A DNA stretch of 63,217 nt, filler included, from Collodictyon triciliatum (Eukaryota): NCBI GenBank assembly GCA_043381765.1. It is 12 parts of 11 records of this genome, joined end to end, with 100 filler letters (N's around TTAATTAATTAA, not from the genome) between each part and the next. Parts side by side here need not be neighbours in the genome. Positions count along the whole stretch, not along the records: positions 12,405 to 18,505 come from JBHJMP010004706.1; 11 more parts are not named here. One strand, written 5' to 3'. Shown here piece after piece: positions 6,104-60,892 of the stretch. A model generated the notes under the pieces. The model saw only the letters and a program-made list of their open reading frames with translations. It had not been told where the DNA came from and did no database searches. Both the position numbers and the translations under genes were made by a program. The first letter of the stretch is position 1. Every line of letters starts with the position of its first letter.

Positions 6104-6203
6104 NNNNNNNNNNNNNNNNNNNNNNNNNNNNNNNNNNNNNNNNNNNNTTAATTAATTAANNNNNNNNNNNNNNNNNNNNNNNNNNNNNNNNNNNNNNNNN
6201 NNN
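6104..6203. other. Artificial contig linker 44N-TTAATTAATTAA-44N
   Basis: The same 100-nt linker recurs at 12305, 18506, 21358, 23619, 29808, 36008, 42205, 48402, 54598 and 60793. TTAATTAATTAA gives stop codons in all six frames. Confidence 0.98.
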
Positions 6204-8178: not shown

Positions 8179-10065
8179 ATAGATGAATAAAAAAGAACAT
8201 TCAAATGTAGCAGCAGAAAACAATTTGCATGGATGATAAAATCATTTCGCTTCAAACACAGCCACCTAGAATTTCGAAGGATGGGCGAAGCTCTGTTGTC
8301 AAAGACGAAATGGTCTCGATTCAAGTCCTGTCGCCAAAAGAAAAATTTAACAATAATAAATCAGTAAACACATCAAAAACCAAATCCTGAACTCAAACAG
8401 ACTCGTGGTTCCATAAATGCGCTCACAACTTCACCGAAGTTGGATATGAAATCAAACGAAAGGATGTATTTGAACATACAAGCAAACACATCAGTGGTAG
8501 CAGTGTTTCAGCATGGCTGAAACGTAGCCTCGAAGTGACTTCTTGAGACCTGGCATTTGAATATATTTGCACAACGGGCTGGTTTTTGCTTGCCTTCTGA
8601 TTTTCTTTTGACAGTGGACCCACCACTGAAGCTTGAAGAGCATCAAGCACATCCTTGAGAAGCACCCCAGCCATTTGATAATTCAGGCTCTCGCCATAGC
8701 CTTTTGTATGGTAGAACTCCAAGTCTTCAAAGTAAGATATAAGTTGCAAATCACCCTCATCAAACACCGTGCACCAAGGCGCTTTTCTCCAGTCTGAGAG
8801 AGCCTCCAGAGCCACGTGAAACCGGCATGCAGAATGCATCGAGAGCATATCAGCTATGTTCAGGTCCCACTCTGCTCCCAAAGCCAGTCTGTCCTTCACT
8901 CTTTTGACGATGGACGGAAAGTGCTCGGTTTTGAAGTCTTCGGCATACTTGAGATACTTTATTTTGTGGTGGACATTTTCCTGGAAAAAAAAGGGGGCAT
9001 TAATCTAGGCAATTATAGGTAAATATATGAAATGGTGAGATGATGAAAAAAAAATGTTAAAAGATACTAGGGTGAAAAAATTATGATTAAAAATTAAAAT
9101 GTAGAAATAAAAATAACGAAAAGGATGCCAAAGTGAAAATTGTAGACGAAATTACGGCATAATTGGGGCACATATTAAAAAAAGACAAAGTGTAGTCATT
9201 TGACGGCGAGTCGGTCACAGTAAAATATGGGGTGTATCTTTTTAATAAATTATAATGTTAAACCAAAACCATGGAAATAATTTTATGCTCAAAAGTGATG
9301 TATGTTTCATTTAAAGTTCTGGTGGAATAATCATGCCCGATAGCTTTGAGATTATAGAAAACAGACGACGATTTCATAGATGTGTGGTTGGATGAATACA
9401 GTCCGTGCATGAATGCCTGGGCACTCTGTCCAGCCCTGCGTATGAATGATTGTACTTTACATCAACTTTTCATTATGAATGGACCGGCTGTGACTTGATT
9501 AAAAAAAATTGACGTCACGGATGATGTTTATAGCAACAAGTATCACAAGGAAATTATACAGCAAACCATAGTTAAAGAATGATAATTTTATTAGAAACCT
9601 TGGGGATTGAGTGTGCTGCACATGAATGGCTTCGGGGTCATACAAGTCTGAGAATACTTTCTGAAATCTTTGCTTGAATCTGGCGCCAATACTGATGACT
9701 TCTTTTATCCCTGCCAGAACAAACAGCGATTACATTGAAGAGGTGCACAAGAAAATAAAAGATTCAATGGTTCATGTGGCGACAGAGACAAGACTTCATT
9801 TAGATATATATTTCACCAATCTTTATTTCGAAAAGAAAAAATCGAGATGCAGAAGAAATTAAAGAAGAAACCTTGTTCTGCAAGATACATCGCTTTATTT
9901 TTTTCATACGGTGACTTCCAACTGCGAATCCAAGCGTAAGCTAGATTTCCCACCGCATCACCCGCTTTTTCTGAGAGGATATCGTAATATTGTTCAGTAA
10001 ATTAAATGAATTTACTCACATAATTTTTTATAAGCACAGAGGCAGATGAGAAGACTTACATACAA

Positions 10066-12304: not shown

Positions 12305-12550
12305 NNNNNNNNNNNNNNNNNNNNNNNNNNNNNNNNNNNNNNNNNNNNTTAATTAATTAANNNNNNNNNNNNNNNNNNNNNNNNNNNNNNNNNNNNNNNN
12401 NNNNAAAATAGAAAATAAAAATAGAAAATAAAAATAGAAAATAAAAATAGAAAATAAAAATAGAAAATAAAAATAGAAAATAAAAATAGAAAATAAAAAT
12501 AGAAAATAGATAAATAGAAAACCAATCCGAGGAATTAGATATGAAAGTAT

Positions 12551-15500
12551 ACTTGTTTGTATGGTAAATATAAAAAGCCATATCGCGCCCCTGGTTCATA
12601 CCCAGGTCGATCAAACATTTTTCTCACTTTCCACCAAACGAATATTGGAAACCCGATCATGAAAAGAAAGAACACGACAATCGAAATTGAAAGCAGTTCT
12701 TTGTATTCAACTGAAAGGGGGGAACACTCAATCCAAGGGGCAAAGTTAAGAAACCATATACCAGTTCCAGAATCATATACAGTGCACCCAAATACACCAA
12801 AAACCTCTCTTGCGATCGAGTAGTAAATAAGAAACAAAAGATTCAAAGTAATGAAGACTGCCTAACCAAATTAGTCATGTGAGATATTATAAAGTATACA
12901 AAACATCTTAACATAACACTTGCCTTGTTTTGCATGCGTCCATATCCAAAGAAGTATGCTATTGCGCCAGATAGTATAAAAATGGGTATTCGAGAAAAAC
13001 TGAATATAATTGATTCAAAAACAGCATTAGAACCAATGATACATGCCAAATTTGGAAATGAGATGGAACCAAAAGACGAGGATATCTCGATAAAATTATT
13101 AAATTCCTCTGATTCAACGAGACCAGAGGAGATGACCGACAGAGTTTGCATGTGAAACATGATGATCCGAAGTTTCGCTTCAGAGAGAAAAATACAATAA
13201 ATAAAATAATAACGGTAGACAATTATTATTATTATTATTATTCATTTGGTTGATAAAAAGGAGATGTCACTATAAATGAAAAACATACCCGACTTTGGAG
13301 ATTCCGAAAAGTATAATTGTCCAATAAACAAACAGAATCCAATAGTACCTACTATGAGAGTCCAGTAAGCAGTTGTTTTCTCACATTTAATACACGACCT
13401 TCCTTGATTTCCATAACCCTCCTGGCATTTTGAACATGCATGGCCTTCATACCCATTCTCACATAATTTTATAGAATTAATGGATGAATTTTGGTTGGTA
13501 AGCACTGTCGGTATGACGGTTTTGCATGAATCAGGTTGAGGACATGGGAGAACCAATTTTATGTTTTCGATATTCGGGGAAGCGTAGCATTCTTTTAATG
13601 ACTTTCCATCCACACAGTCGCATTCTCCAGGGCATTGAATACAATTATTCCCGTAACCAAAATAATTTGGAAGGCATTGGCAGAATTCAAAATCATAGTA
13701 CATCGGATTTAAGTCAACGCGTGTTTCAACGAGACCTACGTTTGCAGTTGTAGAAGGGCACATGAAGAGATTCGTTTTGTCCTCTAAATTAAATGGTTCC
13801 TTATAGGACATATATGATGGAAGTAGATTTTCCTGTCCATGGTGCATACAGGTATTCTTAAATCCTAAATATTCAAGCTTAGAAAAGCGGCTATAAGATT
13901 CGGGGATGGTCCCTAAAATGGGGTTGCCGGAAAGATCTAGGCGAGTCCACTTTAAAAGTCTCGTCAAATCCCCTAACTTGGATATTTTATTGTTTTTCAA
14001 GCTTAAATCCTTTAAATTAGGGACATAATTAAAAATAGACCATTTTAGTTCCCCGTAAAGTCCATTATCATCTAAGTTGAGAGTCTCATAAGTATAGTTG
14101 TAGTACTTTGACGATGGCGATATAAAATCTCCGACTTCACCTGTGAATGAATTATTTCTCAAATCGACAGACACCAAATTGGCCAAATTCCAAAAAAGAA
14201 TGGGCATGTTCCCATGAAATCGGTTGTGAGATATTGACAAAGACTTGAGTTGGTACGTTGTTTCAAAGTACGTAGGTATCACACCACCCATTTTATTTCT
14301 TGATAAATCTATGTATTGTATGGAAGAAATACTCAAATCTGGAGATATGGAACCGCCTATATGATTCTCACTCACATCCAACGAAATCAACTTTGGTAAA
14401 TTTAAAGCAGGCAAGGTTCCATTGAGACGGTTTCTAAATGTTATGATTTCTTCTATGCAAAGACATCTTGTGAAGTCTGGGATCTCACCATGCAGTTCAT
14501 TTTCATATGCTGAAAAAGAAGTGATAGTATATAGGTGTTCGAATTGTGGGATATTTCCTATCATAAATTCATTTAGTTTTACTAAAGTGTCATTCGGGAT
14601 TATTATTATTTTACGAAAACTGGGCGTATGTAAATTTCAAATATTCTTTTTATTACCTGTAAAATAATTACGTGATACATCTAATGTATTTAAAATACTC
14701 AGCTGATCGAAGTTAATGATGCTCCCTGTAAAAAAAAAAGTATGAAATATAATATTGGATGATAAAAAATTCTTGAAAAGCTAATTATACAATTATAAAA
14801 ACAAACAAACAAACAAACAAACAAACAAACAAACAAACAAACAAACAAACAAACAAACAAACAAACAAACAAACAAACAAACAAACAAACAAACAAACCT
14901 GTGAACTCGTTATTCGAAAGGTTCAATATGTTGGCTTGGGTGATAAATCCGAAATTCGGAATTGACCCTTAAAAATCTTTCTTTCAAAATTTATCATATG
15001 CAGTTATTGTCTACATGTTTTCTTTTTTGTTCGATCATATGTTGTGGAAAAACAACTAAAACTACCACTAAAAAATAAATTAAAAGGAGGAATATAAATA
15101 TAAAAAACCATTCAGCTTGTTCCCGGATAGCTCCATTAGTGAAACAATTGGCATATTTGCAAAATCAGGAACAGTACCTGATATGATATGAAAGTGGGAT
15201 TTAATTTCTCTCTTTTTTCTTTTACACGCATGAGCGGTGACTCATATAATTTTATGATATACTTTATTTTGATAAAATATTCTAAATATTAAAAAATTCA
15301 ATCACCAGTGAGTTTGTTACTGNNNNNNNNNNNNNNNNNNNNNNNNNNNNNNNNNNNNNNNNNNNNNNNNNNNNNNNNNNNNNNNNNNNNNNNNNNNNNN
15401 NNNNNNNNNNNNNNNNNNNNNNNNNNNNNNNNNNNNNNNNNNNNNNNNNNNNNNNNNNNNNNNNNNNNNNNNNNNNNNNNNNNNNNNNNNNNNNNNNNNN

Positions 15501-17219
15501 NNNNNNNNNNNNNNNNNNNNNNNNNNNNNNNNNNNNNNNNNNNNNNNNNNNNNNNNNNNNNNNNNNNNNNNNNNNNNNNNNNNNNNNNNNNNNNNNNNNN
15601 NNNNNNNNNNNNNNNNNNNNNNNNNNNNNNNNNNNNNNNNNNNNNNNNNNNNNNNNNNNNNNNNNNNNNNNNNNNNNNNNNNNNNNNNNNNNNNNNNNNN
15701 NNNNNNNNNNNNNNNNNNNNNNNNNNNNNNNNNNNNNNNNNNNNNNNNNNNNNNNNNNNNNNNNNNNNNNNNNNNNNNNNNNNNNNNNNNNNNNNNNNNN
15801 NNNNNNNNNNNNNNNNNNNNNNNNNNNNNNNNNNNNNNNNNNNNNNNNNNNNNNNNNNNNNNNNNNNNNNNAAAGATGTAAACTTACCACCCAACGGATT
15901 ACTGTATATGTATACATGGGTCGCAAAATGAATGCAGCAAAAATCAGGCACTGTTCCTATTTTTTTTGGATGTATATGCTTTTAGCATATCTTTCAAATA
16001 TATTAATCAATTAAAAAGGATTAAATCGGTTCCGCTTCATATATACAACAGTGATTTGTCAACCTGTTAGTTGATTATCAAATAAGTAAAGCTTGTATAT
16101 ATTTGGCGTCTCATGAAATTCAGGAATGGTTCCTATTGCAAAGACGAAACCTCAAGTTAAAAGCCATAATTTCATACCGAATTTAAGCGATGCAAATATT
16201 TTTAAACCACATGATAGGCTATTATACCATAAATTTGAGTTCCTGTTATCGACAGCAGCTGAATATTTGGTATAAATGAAAACTCAGGTAATGAGCCTAC
16301 AAGATGAATTACGGTCAGCTATAAAAATAATAATATAACAATAAAAATGTTGATAGTTATAAAACCTGATATTTTTTTACTATATCCGATAACGAGGTTC
16401 GCAATCAAAGGAATTTCAGAAAAATTCGGAATGCTTCCATCAAGTGTGTTTCGATGAATTCTTAAATTTGTGACACATGGCAATCCCTTGAAATCAGGAA
16501 TGGTTCCAGTAATTTGATTAAGCCAAAGATCCAGATAAGAAAGATATGGCAAATTGAGGTCAAGTAAACTCCCATAAATTAAATTGTTTCCAAAATTAAT
16601 ATGTGTGAGGTATGGGAGTTGCTCCAATAGATCCGATAAATCCTGAATATCCCCTAAAAGATTATTCTTTTGCATTTGGAATCCTGTAACAGCACATGTA
16701 TTCTCCTAAAATATAAAATAATATCAGAGAAATATGCATTAATTTAAATACAAATAACATTTATCCGCGTACCAATATCGCTTCATAAGGACAATCTTTC
16801 ATGCAAATTACACCAAACCAATGGCAAACTGGCATGGTAGTATTATTCCACCCAGTATTATCAATCCAGTTCTCCCCATCAAAGGAATTAAAAATTTTGA
16901 GCAGAATGTCATATTGATCAGAAATTGTATTTTTAGACTTTTTTAAAGTGATTTCTCCTGCTTCATAAAAATCAATTTCATCGAACTCTTTTTCAAAATT
17001 GGATATCCTCACACCTTTCATTTTAGAATACCTTTGATTATCCAATTTTTCATTCAATTTCTTATTATCAGGCTCAGGAACGTTCTCTTGTTGATATGAT
17101 TGACTGCAATTCAAAATTGATGAATATCGTATGTATTCGCGATCCATTGGTATTTTGGAATGAAAGCAATGATGGTCGTATATCTCTAAAAGAATCTTAA
17201 AAGCATCGTCTTGTTTCAT
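12551..17219 (-). CDS. LRR ectodomain + Cys-rich region + multipass transmembrane receptor-like protein (3'-truncated, contains a gap)
   Basis: LRR N-cap (GENWIDNTGW..VCHWFGVIC), many LxxLxLxxNxLxGxIP repeats, Cys-rich CENGYEGHACSKCQEGY..CIKC, then several hydrophobic helices ending RYGFLYLPYKQ. An in-frame hydrophobic stretch (LLLLAFLFLF) lies just upstream of the ATG at 17219, so the true start may be in an unrecognised exon. Confidence 0.85.
14799..14898. repeat. (AAAC)n microsatellite starting at a splice donor
   Basis: Reads GTTTGTTT... on the minus strand immediately after a 69-nt LRR exon. Confidence 0.95.
15323..15871. other. Scaffold gap inside the LRR gene
   Basis: N run without a linker; LRR exons continue in the same orientation on both sides. 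Confidence 0.95.
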
Positions 17220-17474
17220 AGAAAGTAGGTCGTTTCGGGTGTAGTGACAACTATTTGAAAGGATAACTGGGTTATAAAAAAGAAATAAAAATGCAAGTAG
17301 TAATAATTCGTTTCTTTGTGAGCTTTGGCAAGGTTATGATCAAGTTCGACCTTTGGTGTGAAAAGCTATTGCGGGGGAAACTAACAACGATTAGCGATAG
17401 GATTATGAGCCAAAAGCTCCTTTTGAGAAGATTTCAGCAGGTTAATATACTTGTACTATTTTATGGTACATTAA

Positions 17475-17576
<102 letters not shown>

Positions 17577-18605
17577 GTACTAAATTGAGCATCATGGAGA
17601 CTTCTAAATATATTTGTACCTAATTTTCATCCATAATGTATAGATCTTGAAAGACTGAGATTTGTTAACGAACTTAGTCTGATATCATTTTTCTTGTAAT
17701 TTTATTTCCTCATTTATAACGAACATATTTTAAATTTGTAAAATGATTGAAGTTATCCATTTAGCTTTGTCCTTCTTATGATTTGTATTTACTTGTGTTA
17801 AAATAAATAAACATAATATTATTTTTCGAAAATGAACCTTTTTAATCAAGATCGGGGTTATGCGACCTATTTTTTTATTCAGTCATTTATTAAACATTCA
17901 AGTTAATCCTTTCAGACAAGAGCCTAGTATTTTAAATTGATTTTTTTTTATTATCGAGTTAAGTACATAAATATCTTTACCTATGTGTGAACGCGCCTAT
18001 CATGATATTTTGTTAAATTAAGATTTCGTCAGCAATTTCCAAAAATTAATCATTATTACTTCCTAAATTGTCTACCAGAGTGTATTTAAATATACCTCTA
18101 ATGCACTGGAGTCAAGTTTTTCTGATCTATGAGTTGAGTTGAAGTATTTTAGTATTTTTATCTTATTATTGAAATGTTAAAATGCAAGAAAAAAAAAACG
18201 TACGAACAAAAATCAAGTCGGTGCCATTTTGTAGTCGAACAAGCTTCTGTGGCACGGACGGATGAGGAAAGGAAAATATAGATAAGATTTAATGACATGA
18301 AAATGAACCCAATTTCCGCTAAAGGTAACGTATCCTCAAAGAGACTGATATAATTATATGTAAAATGAAGATGAAAAGGTGAAAAGATAAAAAAAATATA
18401 AAAAAATATAAAAAAAGATAAAAAAAGATAAAAAAGATAAAAAAAGATAAAAAAAGATAAAAAAAAGATAAAAAAAGATAAAAAAAGATAAAAAAAGATA
18501 AAAAANNNNNNNNNNNNNNNNNNNNNNNNNNNNNNNNNNNNNNNNNNNNTTAATTAATTAANNNNNNNNNNNNNNNNNNNNNNNNNNNNNNNNNNNNNNN
18601 NNNNN

Positions 18606-20786: not shown

Positions 20787-21829
20787 TAAATAAATCGCGG
20801 GTAGTGCACAGCCCGATGTTCTAGTCATGCAGATTTGGTTGGGAAGGTAAATTGCGCCTGATGGTTTTTTTTTAAATCGCTTATCTTTCTTCATTTGGTT
20901 CCTTGTTGTTATTGTTGTTTTTTCTTAATCTTGTTTGCTTTTCTTTGCAACTGGCAGCTGTTGACGATTCCGTTGTTGGGACAGCAGCGAAGCAAAGAAT
21001 CGGTTTTAATTCAAATGCGGAACTTACATATATAATACTTTTTGTTTGATTCAGGGCGAGCTATGCCATATGAATAAAAATAAATCATCAAAATTATTAA
21101 TATTGTGTCAAATAAAAGAAATCTTGTGTCACGAACTATCTGTGGCTAGGGTTCCTGTCTCCACGCAACCAACCAACGCAGGTGCCACCAAACTATATAT
21201 ATAATAGCTTTGTGACGCATCGCCCTTTTCTCCCAATGGAAACCGCATTTCTAAAACCCTCTTTTGTACGTGAAGCCCACTCAGTTGATCTGAATCCACA
21301 TCCTTTTTGGTCAATCGACCTGTTGGCACACCCACAAAACGCTTCAAAACGCCGTTTNNNNNNNNNNNNNNNNNNNNNNNNNNNNNNNNNNNNNNNNNNN
21401 NTTAATTAATTAANNNNNNNNNNNNNNNNNNNNNNNNNNNNNNNNNNNNNNNNNNNNTCAAGCTCACGTAAAAACCAAGACCTACACACCTTCACACCTT
21501 CACACCTTCGAGCCAAAAACTAAAGAAAAAACAAATTGAAAAAAAGAAAAAAAGAAAAAAAGAAAAAAAGAAAAAAAGAAAAAAAGAAAAAAACAAAAAA
21601 GAAAAAAACAAAAAAGAAGAAAAGAAGAAAAGAAGAAAAAACAAAACAAAAAACAAAAAACAAAAAAACAAAAAAACAAAAAACCAAAAAACCAAAAAAA
21701 GAAAAAAAGAAAAAAAGAAAAAAAGAAAAAAAGAAAAAAAGAAAAAAAGAAAAAAAGAAAAAAAGAAAAAAAGAAAAAAAGAAAAAAAGAAAAATCTAAT
21801 AACCCCACTTCGCTTCTTTGGACATGCAG

Positions 21830-23474: not shown

Positions 23475-23860
23475 GTTTGTGCTTATGAGCTTGTCCTCTC
23501 CGCTCTATATGGAATGATAGTCTCGTTTCCATGATGTGTATCGCCGAGGGCGAAAGAAAAAATAGTGCGGTGTGAGGTATATGTAAGGGGGCTTGTTTGT
23601 GGGTTTCTCATATCCAACNNNNNNNNNNNNNNNNNNNNNNNNNNNNNNNNNNNNNNNNNNNNTTAATTAATTAANNNNNNNNNNNNNNNNNNNNNNNNNN
23701 NNNNNNNNNNNNNNNNNNTTTTATCTTTTTATCTTTTTATCTTTTTATCTTTTTATCTTTTTATCTTTTTATCTTTTTATCTTTTTATCTTTTTATCTTT
23801 TTATCTTTTTATCTTTTTATCTTTTTATCTTTTTATCTTTTTTTTTTTTTTTTTTTTTTA

Positions 23861-42158: not shown

Positions 42159-42454
42159 ACTTTGAATTGAATACGTGAGAGATAAACGCGAGCTAGATCT
42201 AAAANNNNNNNNNNNNNNNNNNNNNNNNNNNNNNNNNNNNNNNNNNNNTTAATTAATTAANNNNNNNNNNNNNNNNNNNNNNNNNNNNNNNNNNNNNNNN
42301 NNNNATTGTTATGGGACACAGATGAAGGCAAAGCGGATGGGAGAGCATAAATTCCAGATTCTGCGACAGGGTTGAGCGAGTTGCCAATCAATCAATCAAT
42401 CAATGACGCTTTTTTTTTTTATTATATTTTGATCTCGGTGGGATGTGCTTCGTT

Positions 42455-45400
42455 TTAATGAAGGAGCCAGCGTAGGAGACCAGGGGGATTGTTAGCTGAT
42501 GCTCTGTTCTGGTTTGGTTGTCTCGTGTTTTGTTGATTGTGGTTAGATGAAATGCCATTGAAAAGATCGACATGCTCTTGGGAGATGGGAAATTGGCTGA
42601 TTAGAGCTGCCGAGGGATATCCCTGGTGATATCGGAGGTACTGTTGTGGGCCGAAGAATGTAACTCCAGGATAAATGCGGGTATCGGTGGCTTTGATTCT
42701 CCCACTCACAAAAGGCAGAATAATATCGCCAACACAAAACCAGTACCTCATTGTGCTGTAGTCAAAAACAAAACCAAAGGAACATGGCACCGCTCCAATT
42801 AGCTTCGTCAGATTTGCATCTACACTTCGAACTGTGGACCTGAAAAAAGTTAAAGGATAGTTTATAGCCAAATGAAAGAGTATTCGCCAGTTATAGGAGA
42901 GGAGCGCTGATATGTGGATGGTTCACGGGGCAAAACTCATGTGGCGCAAATAAAAACGCAAAAAAAAAAAAAAATGCAAATTAAAACGCAAATTAAAATG
43001 CAAATTAAAATGCAAAAAAAAAATGCAAATTAAAACGCAAATAAAAATGCAAATTAGAATGCAAATTAAAATGAAAAAATCGAAAGAAAAATAATAGGAG
43101 AAAAGAAGGAGGACTCTGTTTTCCATAATGATGTACCTGCAATCATTTTCGGTCAGATATGCTTTTCGTTTTCTCAAATCTACAACCATCCGCACACTGT
43201 CCTCTGTTTCTCCAAGAATGTGATTGCCTACTGCGCGGTTGTATGAAAATCCAAAAACTAAAATACCCTCTTTCCCTGGGTGGATTACCTCAAATTCAAA
43301 GAAATCAAACAGGAAGCCATCTCTTTTGTAAAATGGCTCAGTCCTTTGCCATGTGTAGAAATCAGGAGATTCGATGTATGAACAAAGAAAGAAAGGAAAG
43401 CTGACGACAAAAACTTTGGGATGAGATGACTGCGCAATCGTTGGACAATTTGCATACATGTGATGGCCTTTCTCATTTGGCGGACTCTTTAGGATGCGGA
43501 GAAAGAACGTTGCACAGGGACACATTATTCGAACGGCTGGTGTTAGCTGTAGATGTGGTATGAGGGATATCGAGACTGTAGTAGCTTGGGTTGGACTTGC
43601 AATTGTTAAACGGTTACTGTTGTAGTTCAAATGAAGAGTAAGTAGAGATTGAGGAGAGTTTTTGTAATCTGCTATGATGCCAATTGATTTACCATCAAAA
43701 AATATGTGTCCAGTTTTTGTATCAAATCCAAAAGAGTTGCGCCCAACACCCGGCACGATGTCTGGTTGTGAGTCGTATGGCACTAGGCCAATAATTGCAT
43801 GTCCATTCGAGACGTTGAAATAAAGGAATTCGTGGCCTGAAAACCCTGACCATGATACGTCGGAAAGGATGGTAAATTGTGGGATTCTTGTCGTTCCGCA
43901 AAGAATGTCGACGTAATCATGTGCCGAATCAACTAACAAATGAACGCCATCTATCACCGTGGGAGATAGAGCAGTGACTGGGGTAGCTGTGTTCGATGAG
44001 AAAGGTCACGTTAAATGCAAGTAACTTCTTTATTATTGATAAATATACCGAATGATAAGAAATAACGAGCATCACCATCTGCATGAAGAAATTGATTTGA
44101 ATGGTAGAATAAATCGATACACGCACCAGTAATAGCAACCGGTATCGGATTCGCTTGGCCATTTTCAACCTATGTATTTATAAAGAGGTAAACATTTTGA
44201 TAGTGACAACGACCATAATTTTTTTTAAACTGGCATGTGCACTGCGTATTTTATAGAAAAAGTGAAATAATTCACCGAAGCATTCTTTTTAAATGGAAAA
44301 AGATTTGCCTTTTCTTCCTCCTGGGTAACGTTGTATTTTATGTAAAGTAGCTCAAATGGATATACCATCACAAATAAAGCAAACCACACACAAAAGCTGA
44401 TTCCCCATATCAGTATGAGAATAACATATAGTAATAGCAATATAGCTTGCTCAGCAATCTTAAGACCTTGAGCCGATACCAGGTGGACAGCAAATAAAAA
44501 AGGTGCAGCGAAAATCAGAATGACTGTGGAAATAAGCCAGTGTATGGACAGAGCAAAAAAGTCAACAGCAAAGTAAATCACACCTCCTTTAGTTTTCAAT
44601 GGAGTGGACCACACAGAAAGCAGATTTGGCGTGGGAATGTATGTGACATACCAAGTCATAAAGTTTGAAGGCGTAATCAACTTCGACCAAAACGCTAACC
44701 TCTGGAGCCACGCTTCTCTCAGTAGCCATATAATAGGGAATAAGGCGTTGAGCGGGGGAGGGAGGGATACATTTTTCAGGGTAAAAACTGTTTCACAAAA
44801 GAGCATGTTGTATTGCTTCGACGACTCAGATTGCACGCTTTCGTAAGTGCCGCTCAGGATTGCAATTAGAAAATTCAGTAAAATAATCATTGTGATTAGA
44901 GAGAAGATATATGAATCTACTCTTCCCAGTATTTGTTGAACTTCAACAAACCCATTTGCATCAAATCCTCCAAAAATTGAGCTCATGGTTACATACAATG
45001 AATTCGAGTATAGGCTGTAGTCCGCCAAACGCTGCCCATAAATTGTGTAAAAATAGCTACAAAAAGCAACCAAAAATGCCAACAAAAAAATAAAGAAGCG
45101 AATAATATCACGGAACATGCTTTGTACTATGAATTGCATCGGACCTAAATTCGGGTCGATATTTGTGTAGAACAAAAGCCTGATGAAACTCAGCAGAACA
45201 ATCCACCCAACTAAAACCTTTTCAACAGACCAAAAATACGAAATGTCGAAATAGTTTTGCGTTTGGTCAATCCAGCCACTGGAAGAGCTACTAGATTGAC
45301 TAACAAGCAGGCTAAGTTCCGTTTCTACATAAGCCGTAACAGAAAATAGTACAAGTATCAGCATATCATAGAAAAACCAGGAATCATAAATGTCATTTCT

Positions 45401-47463
45401 CATGGTTAAGTGAAGTCGCTGGATTTGGTAAAGGAATAGAGATATTGCCCACACCAGCAAAACCAAATGGTAGCCAGCAGTTTTGATAGAGTCCTTGACA
45501 ATCCACTCTCTTGGTATTGACTCGACTGATACCCAAACATTGCACAAACCCGTGGGTAACACTTCTATATTGATTACTCCAATGGATAAGCATCCTATGT
45601 TGTCAAATGACACGACAAACTCGATGGCAACATATCTAGTCAGGTGGTCGATCCAGTAGTCATCCTTAAGTTCTTGCACTTTTTCTCGCATGAGCGATTT
45701 ATTTGACAGCTTAACAAACTCAACAAACCCGTCGCACTCGTACCAAAAGTTGGCCGGAGACACGGATGATAATCGATTTCTTGAACACAAATCTTTGAAT
45801 CGGAATTTTCCCTGGGGTCCAAACGGACTTTTGTCTTTGTGCTTGGTTATGTAAGGTGGAGAGCATTGTGGGAACTGAGATGGTGCGGGGTCAGTGCCAA
45901 TCGCATAAATATCTTGGCCACATCTCGTCTCTTGTACTCTCAACTGCCGCAAGCGCAAGCCCAAAATCGGTCGGTAAAAGGAATGAGAGATATTTTTTGA
46001 ATCTGAAGGAATGACACTCCAAAAACTGGCTGTATTATCAGCGTAGTTTTCGATTAAATCATCCTCGATGTAAGGCCAAATATGACCAACGTCGGATATA
46101 CCTGACGTATCGATTTTTTTCTCCAACGCACTTGATGCCGTGAATGCACTCACGTCCCCCGTTGTATTTTTATCTATGACGTATAGCAACAGGAGTGTCA
46201 AGAATAAAAGGTACAGAAAGAGTGACATAAAATATTTTGCTCGGATCGACCTGCAAAATCTTGGAATTATGTAAGCGTAATAAGCCAGTGCCCAGAACCA
46301 CGCCCAACTGAAAAATGAAGCATATGAATCTAATTTGGGCGGCACGGTTCTTGAATAATCCAAGTAATCCTTCGTACTTGCTTGATTACCCCACAATTTA
46401 TGTATGTAATCGTTTACGGCTGGCATCTCCAGGATAAGGAAGGCGCTATGTTGTATGCTGAGTTTTATGATCTCATCCAACTGCTCTTCGCCAAGATGGC
46501 TCAAACTGCTTATAAGGTTGCTCGCATGAATTTCGAAGGAGTCTCGCAAGGATGGAATAACCTTGGGTACACTGGAGAAGATGCCAAACAGTCTTAATGA
46601 ACGAATAAGCTGGTTCCGCTCCTTTATAAAAAGGGCACTAATTTCATCTGCCACAGTAACACTAATGTCATCGTTTCCAACTAAAACGATGGTGCACAAG
46701 GGGAGGCTGCATAATTCCACCGGAAAAGAATTCTCTGCAGTGTTGAGTGCATTTTAAGGCTGGTGAAATGAAAGCATGTTCTTCAAATGTATGAATATCT
46801 CTCTGGAGGCATAATAGATTCAATCAAACCTTGTGCTTTGATGTTGATATTTGAAGAATCAAGATTATCAAACATTTCCTTTTGAATTTGACAGTTGTCT
46901 TTTGGTAAGATATTGAGAGATGCGTCGTTAATCGTGTCATTCCTCTTGCTCCTTGATTTTCCATCACAAAGGCTGTTTTCTTGCAAAGCTAAGATATTGT
47001 AGCTAAAGTCAATTCGGTGAATACTTTGTAGACACCCAACATCGCTTGGAATAGATAGCAAATAATTGTGGGACATATCCAATGATTCGAGCAAAGCAAG
47101 CTGGCTTAGTCCTGGTGGAATCGACGATAAACCGCAATTCTTTATTGCCAGATCCCGGAGTTGAGTGAGCTCAAAAATAATCGATGGAAAGGCAAGACAG
47201 TGAGCCTGCTCGATGGAAAGCTTTGTCAAACCAGTCATCAGAGTCATCGAGGATGGTAGTGATACGCTGCTCTGGCCTCTGGAAAGCGCAAATGAAATAA
47301 AGAGTTCTTTCACATTGGTAAGCAGGCTGATCTCTTCTGGTATTACAGTTTGATCGATATGGTCGAGAACCAATCGCGTCATTTGCAGGAGCTGTGGGAC
47401 TGTGCATCCTTTCATATCAGCCAGGACATCCAGCGGATTCGTCGCCGTGCTGATAAACTGCAT
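42455..47463 (-). CDS. LRR - TRP/polycystin cation channel - SPRY - SPRY fusion protein
   Basis: LRR exon (47463-46830) splices in frame via a GT-AG intron (46829-46735) to the channel exon (46734-44276: LRLRQLRV..C, WIDHLTRYVAIEF, LGPMQ, SIFGGFD, IILLNFLIAILSGTY, LPPPLN). Further in-frame exons lead into two SPRY-like domains; stop at 42455. Confidence 0.88.
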
Positions 47464-47809
47464 GTCGCCTTTGCCCAACGGTGGCACCCTCTTTCTTTGG
47501 ATGAGTTCTTAACCTTTCTTTTCTTTTTCGCCTTTTTTTTTGGTCTTTTTGTCCGCGGCGATCTATTGTGTTGATTGTTTGTTCATTCACAAATGTAATG
47601 GTTTCAGTAGTGGTAACGCACTAAATGATGGGGCTGGTTTATTCAGAGTGTGTAGCCTTTGTACTTTCCCATTAAAAGAAAAGAACCTGATTCGCGTCAC
47701 CGATTCGTTTGCAGCTTTAGTTGGCCTTTGCGATGGGAGGTGGCCTCTTCTTTCAGACTTCGTCCTGTTATTTTTTTTTTTTTTCGTTTTTTCGTTTCTT
47801 CGTTTCTTC

Positions 47810-47906
<97 letters not shown>

Positions 47907-48501
47907 TTTTATTTTGTTTTATTTTGTTTTTTTGTTTGTTTTGTTGTTTTGTTTGCATAATCCCATAAGCTGCCATAGGCCACTCTTCCGTTGACATACA
48001 TCTAATTCTGGAAATTAAATAGTATTTGCCTTGGCAGAATTGTTTTTCTACAAAAAATCTACATGATGACTTATTATTGTAATATATAATCAAAAAATTA
48101 TAGTGTTTACACTTGCTGCACAATGAAGGTAATATCCCGATAGGATATAAATTCCAGCCACTCGCCACGCCCTTTGTGCATCGACCGAACTGTCATCATC
48201 AAAGGCATCGTTTTCATCTCATAAGTGACACCAGATTTATGCAAGGGATCCTTTCCAACGCAAGAAGCAAAAAACAAAACAAAAAACAAAAAAACAAAAA
48301 AAACAAAAAAACAAAAAACAAAAAACAAAACAAAAAACAAAACAAAAAACAAAACAAAAAACAAAACAAAAAACAAAACAAAAAACAAAACAAAAAACAA
48401 ANNNNNNNNNNNNNNNNNNNNNNNNNNNNNNNNNNNNNNNNNNNNTTAATTAATTAANNNNNNNNNNNNNNNNNNNNNNNNNNNNNNNNNNNNNNNNNNN
48501 N

Positions 48502-54597: not shown

Positions 54598-54697
54598 NNN
54601 NNNNNNNNNNNNNNNNNNNNNNNNNNNNNNNNNNNNNNNNNTTAATTAATTAANNNNNNNNNNNNNNNNNNNNNNNNNNNNNNNNNNNNNNNNNNNN

Positions 54698-58458: not shown

Positions 58459-59569
58459 ATGAGGTCGTTAGTGCAGCTTCTTCTGTTTCTTTTTGCAGTG
58501 TGTGTGATTGGTCCTAGTATAAGGTTAAGATCATCAATAGAAAGCAATAATATGACTAAAGGGGAAATACTCGAAGTAGAGAATGTCAAGTCACTTAGCA
58601 TGGACTATTCTAGTGTTAATATGGAAGACAGGTACAGTGCAGTTGATCTTCGACTTCCGAGACTTAGTGATGACCAACTTTTAGACTTGATAAGAGGATG
58701 TAAACCGGAGCGTCCTTTGATTATATATTACAATCGCGTGCCCAAGTGCGGTTCAACATCAATGCAGTACTATATTAGACAAAACTCACAGTTATCGATT
58801 ACTTTCGGAAAAAAATATGTTCCTTTTACTTATTCTCCGCATAATACTAAGGATCATCCAATAGCAGATCCTTACTCGTTATATATAAATGATGAAGAAG
58901 CTGAGGTACGAAAAAATGAAATTATGTCGCTTGGTCCTGCAGTTGTGGACAGTCATACCTCCTTCTATCCTTACTTCCCTGTTAACTCACACAACACTGC
59001 ATCAGGATATGGGGACATAGGTTACATTAATGTGGTCCGCGAACCTTTTGAAAGATATCAGTCCTTTAAGTCTTTCAAGTGTCGTAATACTGCTAAAATG
59101 TGCGATACTTCTATCAAGGAAGACATGGTTTCATATTCCAATCAGCAAATGACCTACATATGTGGACATCAGCCCGAGTGTATGCCGAGAAACCTGGATT
59201 CTCTATACATCTCCAAAGTTAGACTGATTCAGACGTATGCCGTTGTCGGTTTAACAGAATACTTGAACCAAACCTCACAACTACTGACCAAGATTTTCCC
59301 TGAATTCTTTTACGACGTAAGAAATCTTAGAAGCTTGCATCATAATCATATAATGAAGCTAATATCATTTTAAAATATTTATTCCGTTATGCAAGGTCAT
59401 AAAAGATGAAAAGCGTAATCAAGGCATGTCCAACACTTCATATTCTTCCAATTCTTCCGCCGAAGATATATCCTACTTCAAACGCACGAACGAGTTTGAT
59501 ATTATGTTCTATGAATTTGCCAAAGAAGTATTTAAGAAGAAGCTAGAGTCCTGTGGTATCTCTGAATAA
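58459..59569 (+). CDS. Heparan-sulfate/uronyl 2-O-sulfotransferase-like Golgi type II protein (2 exons)
   Basis: N-terminal signal anchor, 5'-PSB motif IYYNRVPKCGSTS, 3'-PB motif YINVVREPFERYQS, YICGHQPEC and YAVVGLTE. Exon 2 ends D..FYEFAK..F..KLESCGISE-TAA (59567-59569). Confidence 0.88.
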
Positions 59570-60790: not shown

Positions 60791-60892
60791 GGNNNNNNNN
60801 NNNNNNNNNNNNNNNNNNNNNNNNNNNNNNNNNNNNTTAATTAATTAANNNNNNNNNNNNNNNNNNNNNNNNNNNNNNNNNNNNNNNNNNNN

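What the first reader, a model, noticed from the sequence alone, without database searches (positions are those of the whole stretch)
14657..16296. One-LRR-per-exon cassette: six exact 69-nt phase 1-1 exons
Seen (minus strand): exons 16296-16228, 16132-16064, 15956-15888, 15177-15109, 14967-14899 and 14725-14657 are each 69 nt, bounded by AG/GT. Each splits the Gly codon of LxG|xIP and encodes one 23-aa LRR (e.g. GTIPEFHETPNIYKLYLFDNQLT, GTVPDFANMPIVSLMELSGNKLN). A seventh exon end (SNKLTG|GT at 15306) emerges from the gap, which could hold more. Flanking LRRs sit in long uninterrupted exons. Known: single-repeat symmetric exons occur in plant ERECTA-type kinases and in brown-algal LRR-ROCO genes, where exon shuffling was proposed as immune diversification. 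Inference: any exon can be skipped, duplicated or swapped without a frameshift, giving a combinatorial ligand-binding surface. The ORF track misses this entirely.
Basis: partly seen in the sequence, partly recalled or inferred. Interest (0 to 1): 0.75.

Follow-up and report, generated by a model that had tools for sequence, protein, structure and literature searches.

The report
One-repeat-per-exon block in LRR receptor gene
A protist receptor-like gene builds the middle of its leucine-rich-repeat sensor domain from at least seven 69-base exons, each coding exactly one repeat, which is a tidy example of a gene layout already known from plants, brown algae and vertebrates and shows no sign here of being used to generate diversity.

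Summary
All six minus-strand exons are 69 nt, AG/GT-bounded and phase 1-1, and each encodes one 23-aa LRR starting at the Gly of GxIP. A seventh exon end (15322-15306) leaves the 549-N gap.

A 23-column LRR profile built from Diphylleia homologues scored all 119 AG-69nt-GT open segments in the window. The six exons scored 14.4-27.3 bits; the best segment outside this gene scored 7.6.

The gene (17219 to contig end 12405) encodes:
- LRRNT_2;
- at least 22 plant-type LRRs;
- a Cys-rich stalk;
- a multi-pass membrane domain distantly tied to Pfam TRP (PF06011).

Its nearest relatives are a family of at least 13 genes in Diphylleia rotans transcripts.

Nothing supports programmed diversification:
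- the exons are only 33-57% identical in nucleotides;
- the introns are unrelated to each other;
- no relic exons lie in the visible introns;
- 0 of 43 Diphylleia isoform pairs differ by a whole repeat.

No RNA data or whole genome were available. My verdict is a real but ordinary new member of a known kind. The window is a chain of unlinked contigs.

The parts
16773..17219 (-). First modelled coding exon, holding the N-terminal region and a plant-type LRR N-terminal cap. The true 5' end is probably further upstream.
   Evidence: Pfam LRRNT_2, E 2.3e-5, 25 bits against a cutoff of 20.7. The frame stays open upstream to 17333 and there matches the homologues' CxxxxxELLSM...C motif, but it holds no ATG. 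A GT donor follows 16773.
16366..16705 (-). Uninterrupted 340-nt exon with about 5 LRRs. It ends in phase 1.
   Evidence: Pfam LRR_4, E 2.9e-6. Has AG acceptor and GT donor. Its units are collinear with the N-terminal units of the Diphylleia homologues.
16228..16296 (-). Cassette exon E1: 69 nt, phase 1-1, one LRR (GSLPEFSFIPNIQLLSITGTQIY).
   Evidence: Scores 18.0 bits.
16064..16132 (-). Cassette exon E2: 69 nt, phase 1-1, one LRR (GTIPEFHETPNIYKLYLFDNQLT).
   Evidence: Scores 27.3 bits, the best in the window.
15888..15956 (-). Cassette exon E3: 69 nt, phase 1-1, one LRR with a Cys-Cys pair (GTVPDFCCIHFATHVYIYSNPLG).
   Evidence: Scores 14.4 bits. Its best match is the Cys-Cys unit GPIPNFCCIPNLVYLYVNGNQLS of Diphylleia P0126.
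15323..15871 (.). Run of 549 N inside the intron/exon series. It hides the start of the seventh exon and possibly one or two more.
   Evidence: The estimate of hidden exons is an inference from the visible intron sizes of 69-173 nt.
15306..15322 (-). 3' end of a seventh cassette exon (...SNKLT + G), followed by a GT donor.
15109..15177 (-). Cassette exon E4: 69 nt, phase 1-1 (GTVPDFANMPIVSLMELSGNKLN).
   Evidence: Scores 19.5 bits.
14899..14967 (-). Cassette exon E5: 69 nt, phase 1-1 (GSIPNFGFITQANILNLSNNEFT). Its donor GT is the first unit of a (GTTT)n microsatellite.
   Evidence: Scores 20.0 bits.
14657..14725 (-). Cassette exon E6: 69 nt, phase 1-1 (GSIINFDQLSILNTLDVSRNYFT).
   Evidence: Scores 23.2 bits.
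13289..14557 (-). Long 1269-nt exon holding 10 LRRs (periods 23, 23, 22, 23, 24, 24, 29, 25, 22, 24), the Cys-rich stalk and the first membrane helix. It starts and ends in phase 1.
   Evidence: Pfam LRR_1, LRR_8 and LRR_4. DUF7630 is weak, E 0.02. It is 38-41% identical to Diphylleia P0001-P0003 over 95-98% of its length. Paralogue-like fragments P0140 and P0141 share its two boundaries. Its units match those of P0001 one to one.
12924..13177 (-). Exon of the membrane domain, followed by a GC-AG intron (12923-12862).
   Evidence: tblastn with P0001 aligns across it.
12553..12861 (-). Exon of the membrane domain (...REVFGVFGCT...RYGFLYLPYKQ), followed by a GT donor. The gene is then cut by the contig end at 12405.
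   Evidence: It is 53% identical to P0001 residues 1066-1167. The Diphylleia isoform P0134 shows a retained intron at the same place.

Best explanation
This is a real block of at least seven single-repeat exons in the middle of a protein-coding gene of an AT-rich eukaryote.

The gene encodes a type-I-like receptor protein with four parts:
- a plant-type LRR N-terminal cap;
- at least 22 extracellular LRRs of the LxxLxLxxNxLxGxIPxF kind;
- a Cys-rich stalk;
- a C-terminal domain of about nine membrane helices.

Each 69-nt exon supplies one 23-residue turn of the LRR solenoid. All introns of the block sit at the same place in the repeat, after the first base of the Gly codon.

I infer that this layout is an inherited feature of the repeat unit. 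An exon-plus-intron unit was multiplied long ago, or one intron per repeat was ancestral, and the introns at both ends of the array were later lost.

The practical result is that repeat number can change between paralogues over evolutionary time without frameshifts. I take the exons to be spliced constitutively, giving one long ligand-binding surface. I see no evidence for a programmed or combinatorial diversity mechanism.

What is shown: exon bounds, phase, open frame, LRR identity, protein architecture and relatives. What is inferred: constitutive splicing, origin by duplication, and the receptor function.
For: Exon anatomy and open frame.

LRR signal: the six exons score far above every other candidate segment outside the gene. 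The 14 best six-frame matches all lie on this strand of this contig.

Domains: Pfam finds LRRNT_2 and LRR families.

Relatives:
- Full-length relatives with the same architecture occur in Diphylleia rotans transcripts. P0001-P0003 are 38-41% identical over 95-98% of the long exon.
- Eight further Diphylleia gene groups and one Dictyostelium discoideum protein share the membrane domain.

Intron positions look old and shared:
- P0140 and P0141 (53-56% identical fragments) begin and end their homology at the long exon's two boundaries.
- Diphylleia isoform P0134 reads into an intron exactly where the window has its donor, after LYLPYKQ.
- Isoform P0224 runs from non-LRR sequence into the first Gly of a unit.
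- Isoform P0124 lacks 12 residues starting at the first Gly of the Cys-Cys unit.

Age of the block: exon pairs are 33-57% identical in nt and 13-48% in aa, and the introns share only 8-16-nt AT-rich words.

Repeat order: the N-terminal and the ten C-terminal LRR units match Diphylleia units one to one, while the central 23-aa units vary in number between paralogues.

Fold: in the model of homologue P0219, the LRR part matches plant receptor-kinase ectodomains (Foldseek E 1.8e-5; VIA Z 12.2, rmsd 3.3 over 134 residues).
Against: - There is no transcript evidence from this organism. Constitutive splicing, and even use of each exon, is inferred from frame, splice sites and homology only.
- The gene is incomplete. 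Its 5' end is unresolved, there is a 549-N gap, and the contig end removes about 140 C-terminal residues. An inactivating defect outside the visible part cannot be excluded.
- The Diphylleia isoforms are Trinity assemblies. These handle repeats badly, and only those kept in the protein collection were seen, so 0 of 43 pairs is weak evidence against exon skipping.
- The intron positions in Diphylleia are inferred from protein isoforms, not from DNA.
- The central units show no clear one-to-one match between paralogues. That is also what unit turnover would give.
Confidence: 0.72

Rival explanations
1. One reading: the cassette is a diversity generator. Regulated skipping, or evolutionary or somatic shuffling of the frame-neutral exons, yields many receptor variants from one gene, as proposed for brown-algal ROCO genes.
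For: - All block exons are phase 1-1, start with G and end with G, so any subset splices in frame.
- The number of central units differs between paralogues of the family.
- The family is expanded in Diphylleia, with at least 13 clusters at 90% identity, as expected for recognition receptors.
- Brown-algal ROCO LRR exons do show alternative combinations, according to PMC11378527 (abstract and passages read).
Against: - The exons and introns of the block are strongly diverged.
- No relic, inverted or inactivated LRR exons lie in the visible introns on either strand.
- 0 of 43 Diphylleia isoform pairs differ by a multiple of 23 residues. The only internal LRR change is a 12-residue deletion.
- Frame-neutrality follows automatically from any one-repeat-per-exon layout and is not evidence of use.
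Confidence: 0.08
2. The introns were gained independently at the same site of already existing repeats. The repeat junction (...CAG|G, ...ATG|G) resembles a proto-splice site, so the layout says nothing about exon duplication.
For: - Four junctions read CAG|GT: three of the six full cassette exons plus the exon before them. The others read TG|GT.
- The exons are no more alike than LRR units in general, so there is no trace of a duplication history.
- LRRs in the flanking long exons lack introns.
Against: - Seven or more independent gains at exactly the same codon position and phase in adjacent repeats is unparsimonious.
- Introns at the same in-repeat place are inferred in Diphylleia paralogues, which points to an old shared position.
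- Brown-algal and vertebrate one-LRR exons are generally explained by duplication (passages in PMC11378527).
Confidence: 0.12
3. The locus is a pseudogene or an assembly artefact, and the apparent exons are decaying remnants.
For: - The assembly is highly fragmented. The window is a chain of roughly 6-kb and shorter contigs, the locus contains a 549-N gap, and it is cut at 12405.
- No start codon was found for the conserved N-terminal region.
- No RNA run was listed, though a blank there is not evidence either way.
Against: - All 11 modelled exons join in one open frame with canonical GT-AG sites, plus one GC-AG site.
- Conserved residues of the family are kept along about 1000 residues.
- No in-frame stop occurs in any exon.
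Confidence: 0.06

Closest known systems
Brown-algal LRR-ROCO genes (Ectocarpus type I LRR exons): Zambounis et al. 2012, PMC3341825; Teng et al. 2024, PMC11378527 (passages read)
   Same: There is one LRR per exon. Exons are of identical length and the same phase on both sides. The exon starts at the Gly of a GxxP motif, so the boundary falls at nearly the same place in the repeat.
   Different: - The algal exons are 72 nt and phase 2 (PMC11378527); here they are 69 nt and phase 1.
- The algal proteins are cytosolic LRR-ROC-COR GTPases. This one is a membrane protein with an extracellular plant-type LRR array.
- The algal loci carry closely related noncoding or inverted LRR exons in their introns and show alternative exon combinations. 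Neither was found here.
Plant LRR receptor kinases and receptor-like proteins (PSKR, MIK2, ERL1, FLS2, BRI1 ectodomains)
   Same: - It has an LRRNT_2 cap and the LxxLxLxxNxLxGxIPxx repeat of 23-24 residues.
- The modelled LRR part of homologue P0219 matches these ectodomains best.
One search found no paper.
   Different: There is no kinase domain. The LRRs are followed by a Cys-rich stalk and about nine membrane helices. Sequence identity to plant proteins is 25-33% over roughly half the long exon, that is the LRR part only.
Vertebrate NLR genes and gonadotropin-receptor genes with exon-modular LRRs (PMC6642158: abstract and passages; gonadotropin receptors as cited in PMC11378527)
   Same: Strict exonic modularity of LRRs (one 28-aa LRR per exon in NOD/NLRC genes) keeps the frame when exons are dropped. 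In NLRP3 this is used for one regulated isoform.
   Different: They have a different LRR class and length, and cytosolic or GPCR contexts. Alternative splicing is documented there, but nothing is documented here.
Diphylleia rotans LRR / Cys-rich / multi-pass membrane protein family (EukProt transcripts P0001-P0005, P0197-P0204) and Dictyostelium discoideum KAM9958212.1 (P0205)
   Same: - The Diphylleia proteins have the same whole architecture. They are 38-41% identical (P0001-P0003) in the long exon and 47-56% in the membrane exon.
- At least one intron position is shared.
- This is the family the gene belongs to.
   Different: These are uncharacterised proteins known only from transcripts or automatic annotation. 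Some carry extra N-terminal domains: NIDO in P0123 and FG-GAP in one family member. I found no paper on them (Diphylleia + leucine-rich repeat, 0 papers; DUF7630, 0 papers).
Pfam PF06011 'TRP' membrane domain (fungal Flc1/TrpR-type proteins; PMC9600462, start of abstract seen in the listing)
   Same: The membrane domain finds 2595 representative clusters at E <= 0.001. I picked 28 of the more distant hits. Six carry PF06011 in the matched region, four of them above Pfam's cutoff, and many of the 28 have LRR or Ephrin_rec_like ectodomains.
   Different: The window's gene and its close relatives do not themselves reach the PF06011 threshold (best E 0.19, in 2 of 15). No solved structure matches the modelled domain. 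Channel or carrier activity is untested.

Membership tests
One-repeat-per-exon LRR cassette (symmetric exons) | Each exon has exactly the length of one repeat, and all have the same length | tested here: met
   Six exons of 69 nt equal one 23-aa repeat each. The 23-aa period is the strict period of the central LRRs in the homologues.
One-repeat-per-exon LRR cassette (symmetric exons) | The intron phase is the same on both sides, so exons are frame-neutral | tested here: met
   Phase 1 on both sides of all six exons, of the seventh exon's 3' end, and of the two flanking exons.
One-repeat-per-exon LRR cassette (symmetric exons) | The exons are actually spliced into mRNA | not testable with these tools
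   No RNA run was listed for the locus and no genome is held. Support is indirect: an open frame across all junctions and profile matches bounded by the exon ends.
Brown-algal type dynamic LRR exon shuffling (Zambounis 2012) | 72-nt LRR exons, phase 2 | tested here: not met
   Here the exons are 69 nt and phase 1. The 72 nt and phase 2 come from passages of PMC11378527 and PMC3341825.
Brown-algal type dynamic LRR exon shuffling (Zambounis 2012) | Closely related noncoding, inactivated or inverted LRR exons lie within the introns of the LRR region | tested here: not met
   In the six-frame profile scan, no match above 5 bits on the plus strand of the contig or in the visible introns. The 549-N gap could not be examined.
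Brown-algal type dynamic LRR exon shuffling (Zambounis 2012) | Recently duplicated, highly similar exons and introns within or between loci | tested here: not met
   Within this gene, exon pairs are 33-57% identical in nt and introns share no similarity beyond short AT-rich words. Comparison between loci was not possible because no genome is held.
Brown-algal type dynamic LRR exon shuffling (Zambounis 2012) | Transcripts with different combinations of LRR exons | tested here: inconclusive
   This could not be tested in this organism. In the related Diphylleia family, 0 of 43 isoform pairs (11 Trinity groups) differ by whole units, but de novo assemblies are a weak test.
Brown-algal type dynamic LRR exon shuffling (Zambounis 2012) | Positive selection on solvent-exposed LRR positions | not tested
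   No coding DNA of orthologues or close paralogues was available. Per-position variability within the gene is the usual LRR pattern: G1, P4, F6 and N20 are conserved.
Plant-type extracellular LRR domain (LRRNT_2 + LxxLxLxxNxLxGxIPxx) | N-terminal cap LRRNT_2 | tested here: met
   PF08263, E 2.3e-5, 25.0 bits against a cutoff of 20.7, on 16770-17219.
Plant-type extracellular LRR domain (LRRNT_2 + LxxLxLxxNxLxGxIPxx) | 23-24-residue repeats with the GxIP motif and a fold like plant receptor ectodomains | tested here: met
   The model of homologue P0219 matches PSKR, MIK2 and ERL1 ectodomains. The fold was tested on the homologue, not on the window's own protein.
Plant LRR receptor kinase | Cytoplasmic protein kinase domain after a single membrane helix | tested here: not met
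   No kinase family appears in the window's exons or in the full-length relatives. The C-terminus is a multi-helix membrane domain.
Pfam PF06011 TRP membrane domain | Match to the family profile above the curated cutoff | tested here: inconclusive
   The window exons give no hit. In the close family, 2 of 15 members hit, best E 0.19. The link is only transitive: 6 of 28 picked distant relatives carry PF06011 in the matched region, 4 of them at or above 28.5 bits.
Pfam DUF7630 (Cys-rich module) | Match to the family profile | tested here: inconclusive
   The window piece scores E 0.02, 15.5 bits, below the cutoff of 27. Eight of 15 family members match at E <= 1, best 3.6e-7.

The most novel reading that the evidence does not exclude
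The single-repeat exons are a working diversity device in a little-studied protist lineage with affinity to Diphylleia. Regulated skipping or exchange of the frame-neutral 69-nt exons would tune the ligand-binding surface of an LRR sensor. That sensor is coupled to a TRP/Flc-like membrane domain, giving a recognition-receptor system that arose separately from plant receptor kinases, brown-algal ROCOs and animal NLRs.
Probability: 0.07. Interest if true: 0.7.

Novelty: new member of a known kind. Interest (0 to 1): 0.3.

Why it matters
One-LRR-per-exon layouts are already described in brown algae, vertebrate NLR and hormone-receptor genes and, by recall, some plant receptor kinases. The exon pattern by itself therefore adds an example, not a principle.

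The example is useful in two modest ways:
- It shows the same layout, with the boundary at the Gly of GxIP but in another phase and with a 69-nt unit, in a lineage far from those. This bears on whether such layouts arise repeatedly.
- It draws attention to an uncharacterised and apparently widespread receptor architecture: an LRR or other ectodomain, a Cys-rich stalk and a TRP(PF06011)-like multi-pass domain. That architecture is expanded in Diphylleia and present in Dictyostelium.

For annotation, the case is a reminder that ORF-based tracks miss 23-codon exons, and that this window's neighbouring genes are not physically linked.

Tried and rejected
- RNA evidence: the look-up of sequencing runs on 13242-17300 listed no RNA holder. 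None was listed, which is not evidence either way.
- Whole genome: none is held for this window, so no genome-wide census of paralogues or of 69-nt exons was possible.
- Earlier notes of this scan: nothing for this genome or this sequence. A word search gave one analogous rotifer coiled-coil case only.
- Metagenome scan with the long-exon alignment A1: 161 pattern matches, none confirmed.
- Second metagenome scan. It first failed because alignment A3 had no conserved stretch. Rerun with A4, it gave one locus, L001. L001 is 56% GC and shares only a 31-residue stretch with P0001, with no LRR array. I rejected it as not a family member.
- Fold of the membrane domain (model of residues cut from P0219, pLDDT 79.4, pTM 0.77): Foldseek against PDB gave no match at E <= 0.001. 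VIA wide gave a best Z of 6.7, below the noise level stated for helical bundles. phmmer against PDB sequences gave only E 0.65. No known fold is assigned, and this does not show the fold is new.
- The whole-model searches of P0219 were filled by LRR matches and tested only residues 1-148.
- ESM Atlas on the C-terminal part of P0001: best score 0.88, below the 0.9 line. I used it only as a lead, which one search then partly bore out.
- Unit-by-unit orthology of the central repeats: best matches scatter, so no per-exon tree was attempted on 23-residue units.
- Literature: no paper for ERECTA + LRR + 72 bp + exons, Diphylleia + leucine-rich repeat or DUF7630.
- The weak LRR-like peptide upstream (17689-17645, 9.3 bits) was translated and left as probably chance.

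Full report
**What the window is.** The 63-kb window is not one stretch of genome. Eleven identical joints (44 N, TTAATTAATTAA, 44 N) cut it into 12 pieces. The finding lies on the piece 12405-18505, which also holds a 549-N run at 15323-15871. Only this piece can serve as context. The genes on the other pieces are not neighbours. No whole genome is held and no RNA run was listed for the locus.

**The observation.** On the minus strand the six stated intervals are each exactly 69 nt, preceded by AG and followed by GT. Each starts with G and ends with G, so every intron sits after the first base of a Gly codon (phase 1 on both sides). Each exon reads as one 23-residue leucine-rich repeat of the form G-[ST]-[IVL]-P-x-F ... 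L-x-L-x-x-N-x-[LF]-x. The 3' end of a seventh such exon (...SNKLT, G, then GT) is visible at 15322-15306, next to the N run. The gap can hold the rest of that exon. Judging from the visible intron sizes of 69-173 nt, it may hold one or two more (inference).

**Is it more than chance?** Splice dinucleotides and length alone are weak evidence: 119 AG-69nt-GT segments open in phase 1-1 exist on the two strands of the window. I built a 23-column profile from 92 LRR units of five homologous Diphylleia proteins and scored all 119.
- The eight best are all in this gene.
- The six exons score 27.3, 23.2, 20.0, 19.5, 18.0 and 14.4 bits.
- The other two of the eight lie inside the long exon.
- The best segment outside the gene scores 7.6.

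In a six-frame scan of the whole window, the 14 best of 1677 reported matches lie on the minus strand of this contig, 12 of them in modelled exons. Five of the six exons rank 1, 2, 4, 5 and 6, and the profile's ends coincide with the exon ends. The sixth was missed there only because my filter dropped the N-rich frame.

**The gene.** Guided by homologues (tblastn) and by reading the sequence, the exons are:
- 17219-16773;
- 16705-16366;
- the cassette exons;
- 14557-13289;
- 13177-12924;
- 12861-12553.

They join in one open frame. All sites are GT-AG except one GC-AG intron at 12923-12862. The conserved N-terminal motif continues upstream of the first ATG in an open frame without a start codon, so the 5' end is unresolved. 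After 12553 a GT donor follows and the contig ends at 12405, which cuts off about 140 residues (compared with P0001).

Pfam finds LRRNT_2 in the first exon and LRR families in the long exons. The product has four parts:
- an N-terminal cap;
- about 5 LRRs in one exon, at least 7 LRRs in single exons and 10 LRRs in one exon;
- a Cys-rich stalk with a weak DUF7630 match (E 0.02);
- a multi-helix membrane domain.

**Relatives.** The long exon's best full-length relatives are five transcript-derived proteins of 1309-1806 residues from Diphylleia rotans (EukProt). P0001-P0003 are 38-41% identical and P0004-P0005 are 28-29%, over 95-98% of the exon. Below them come plant LRR receptors that match the LRR half only.

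Two unnamed fragments, P0140 and P0141/P0196, are 53-56% identical and sit on contigs of 1.1-1.8 kb. Their homology begins and ends at the boundaries of the window's long exon, and the predicted proteins run on into what would be intron sequence.

The membrane domain of P0001 finds eight more Diphylleia gene groups, one Dictyostelium discoideum protein (E 9.2e-9) and one unnamed protein. Diphylleia therefore has at least 13 clusters of this architecture. The family's central LRRs have a strict 23-residue period. The last ones have periods of about 24, 24, 29-30, 25, 22 and 24, exactly as in the window.

**The membrane domain.**
- Folded alone with 14 relatives, it gives a confident bundle of about nine long helices (pLDDT 79.4, pTM 0.77).
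- It has no convincing solved counterpart: Foldseek finds nothing at E <= 0.001, VIA's best Z is 6.7 and sequence search of the PDB gives E 0.65.
- An exhaustive phmmer search finds 2595 representative clusters at E <= 0.001 and 182 at <= 1e-10.
- Of the 150 hits listed, I picked 28 long, more distant ones. Sixteen carry LRR repeat families, four carry Ephrin_rec_like, and six carry Pfam PF06011 'TRP' in the very region matched. Four of those six score above Pfam's cutoff.
- The window's close family itself does not reach that profile (2 of 15, best E 0.19).

I therefore call the domain a distant relative of the fungal Flc/TrpR-type TRP domain, by a transitive link only. PF06011 proteins are described as regulating calcium homeostasis and flavin transport (start of the abstract of PMC9600462 in the listing). 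The LRR part of the modelled homologue P0219 resembles plant receptor-kinase ectodomains.

**Is the cassette used or shuffled?** Five tests were possible.
1. Recent duplication. The 15 exon pairs are 33-57% identical in nucleotides and 13-48% in residues. The introns share only 8-16-nt AT-rich words. The block is old.
2. Relic exons. Ectocarpus ROCO loci carry closely related noncoding or inverted LRR exons in their introns (passages of PMC3341825). Here nothing above 5 bits lies on the plus strand of the contig or in the visible introns. The gap is untested.
3. Isoforms in relatives. Among 35 Diphylleia isoform proteins in 11 Trinity groups, I compared 43 pairs.
   - None differs by a multiple of 23 residues.
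   - The differences are 5' truncations, C-terminal intron retention or alternative ends, short substituted blocks, a 5-residue insertion outside the LRRs, and one 12-residue deletion (P0124).
   - Trinity assemblies of repeats are a weak test.
4. Intron positions. P0224 runs from unrelated sequence into the first Gly of a unit. P0124's deletion starts at the first Gly of the Cys-Cys unit, which is the best match of the window's third cassette exon. Both fit introns at the same in-repeat place in Diphylleia. P0134 reads into an intron exactly where the window has its donor after LYLPYKQ. These are inferences from proteins, not DNA.
5. Order. The N-terminal units and the ten C-terminal units match Diphylleia units one to one. 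The central 23-residue units do not, and their number differs between paralogues.

Repeat number has therefore changed in the middle of the array during the family's history, which is common to LRR families with or without introns.

**Conclusion.** The block is real and each exon is one turn of the LRR solenoid. The identical phase makes the exons frame-neutral by construction. The evidence fits an old, inherited one-intron-per-repeat layout with intron loss at both ends, or an old exon multiplication. It gives evolutionary flexibility in repeat number. Nothing found here points to programmed or combinatorial use, but the decisive data (transcripts, paralogue loci) could not be had.

**Comparison with what is known.**
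- One LRR per exon with equal phases is described for brown-algal ROCO genes. Those exons are 72 nt, phase 2, with alternative exon combinations (PMC11378527 and PMC3341825, passages read).
- It is also described for human NOD/NLRC genes (PMC6642158, abstract and passages) and for gonadotropin-receptor genes (as cited in PMC11378527).
- The ERECTA example is recalled, not checked (one search found no paper).
- This case differs in unit length (69 nt), in phase (1), in lineage, and in the protein it serves.

It is a new member of a known kind. The more interesting by-product is the uncharacterised LRR / Cys-rich / TRP-like membrane receptor family itself.

Noticed in passing
window 6104-6203, 12305-12404, 18506-18605, 21358-21457, 23619-23718, 29808-29907, 36008-36107, 42205-42304, 48402-48501, 54598-54697, 60793-60892: Eleven identical joints (44 N, TTAATTAATTAA, 44 N) show that the window is a chain of 12 separate contigs of about 2-6 kb. 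Genes on different pieces are not genomic neighbours.
   Followed up: yes
window 44228-47508, minus strand (contig 42305-48401): A second LRR membrane protein of another kind. An ORF with LRRs (46786-47508) lies just upstream of an 842-aa ORF with Polycystin_dom and PKD_channel (44228-46753). Its LRRs lie in one long ORF, not in single-repeat exons.
   Followed up: partly
window 14726-14898, minus strand: The intron after exon 14967-14899 begins with a (GTTT)n microsatellite of about 100 nt. The first GT of the microsatellite is the splice donor.
   Followed up: no
window 12862-12923, minus strand: A 62-nt intron with a GC donor (AAG|GCAAGT ... TAG) lies in the membrane-domain part of the gene.
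   Followed up: partly
window 12552 (donor), minus strand; Diphylleia isoform P0134: The intron after ...LYLPYKQ is at the same place as a retained intron in a Diphylleia isoform (...LYLPYQK then VILISII). The position is therefore conserved between the two organisms.
   Followed up: partly
window 17645-17754, minus strand, upstream of the modelled first exon: Two weak LRR-profile matches (9.3 and 8.7 bits) lie in AT-rich sequence upstream of the gene. One reads ...IRLSSLTNLSLSRSI... They are probably chance, but could be a decayed repeat.
   Followed up: partly
window 17475-17570 and 18380-18505: Long simple repeats flank the gene: (TTA)n of about 95 nt upstream, and (TATCTTTTTT)n running into the contig end. 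A similar (TTTTCTATTTTTA)n runs into the other contig end at 12405-12500. The contig probably ends in these repeats for assembly reasons.
   Followed up: no
window 8426-9004 minus; 58459-59370 plus: Other pieces of the window carry a histidine-phosphatase (His_Phos_2) ORF and a Sulfotransfer_2 ORF.
   Followed up: no
Diphylleia proteins P0123 and P0005/P0135 (not in the window): Some family members carry extra N-terminal modules before the LRRs. P0123 has a NIDO domain, and one of the 15 members scanned has FG-GAP repeats (precomputed for P0005). More distant holders of the membrane domain have CUB, beta-helix or Ephrin_rec_like ectodomains.
   Followed up: partly
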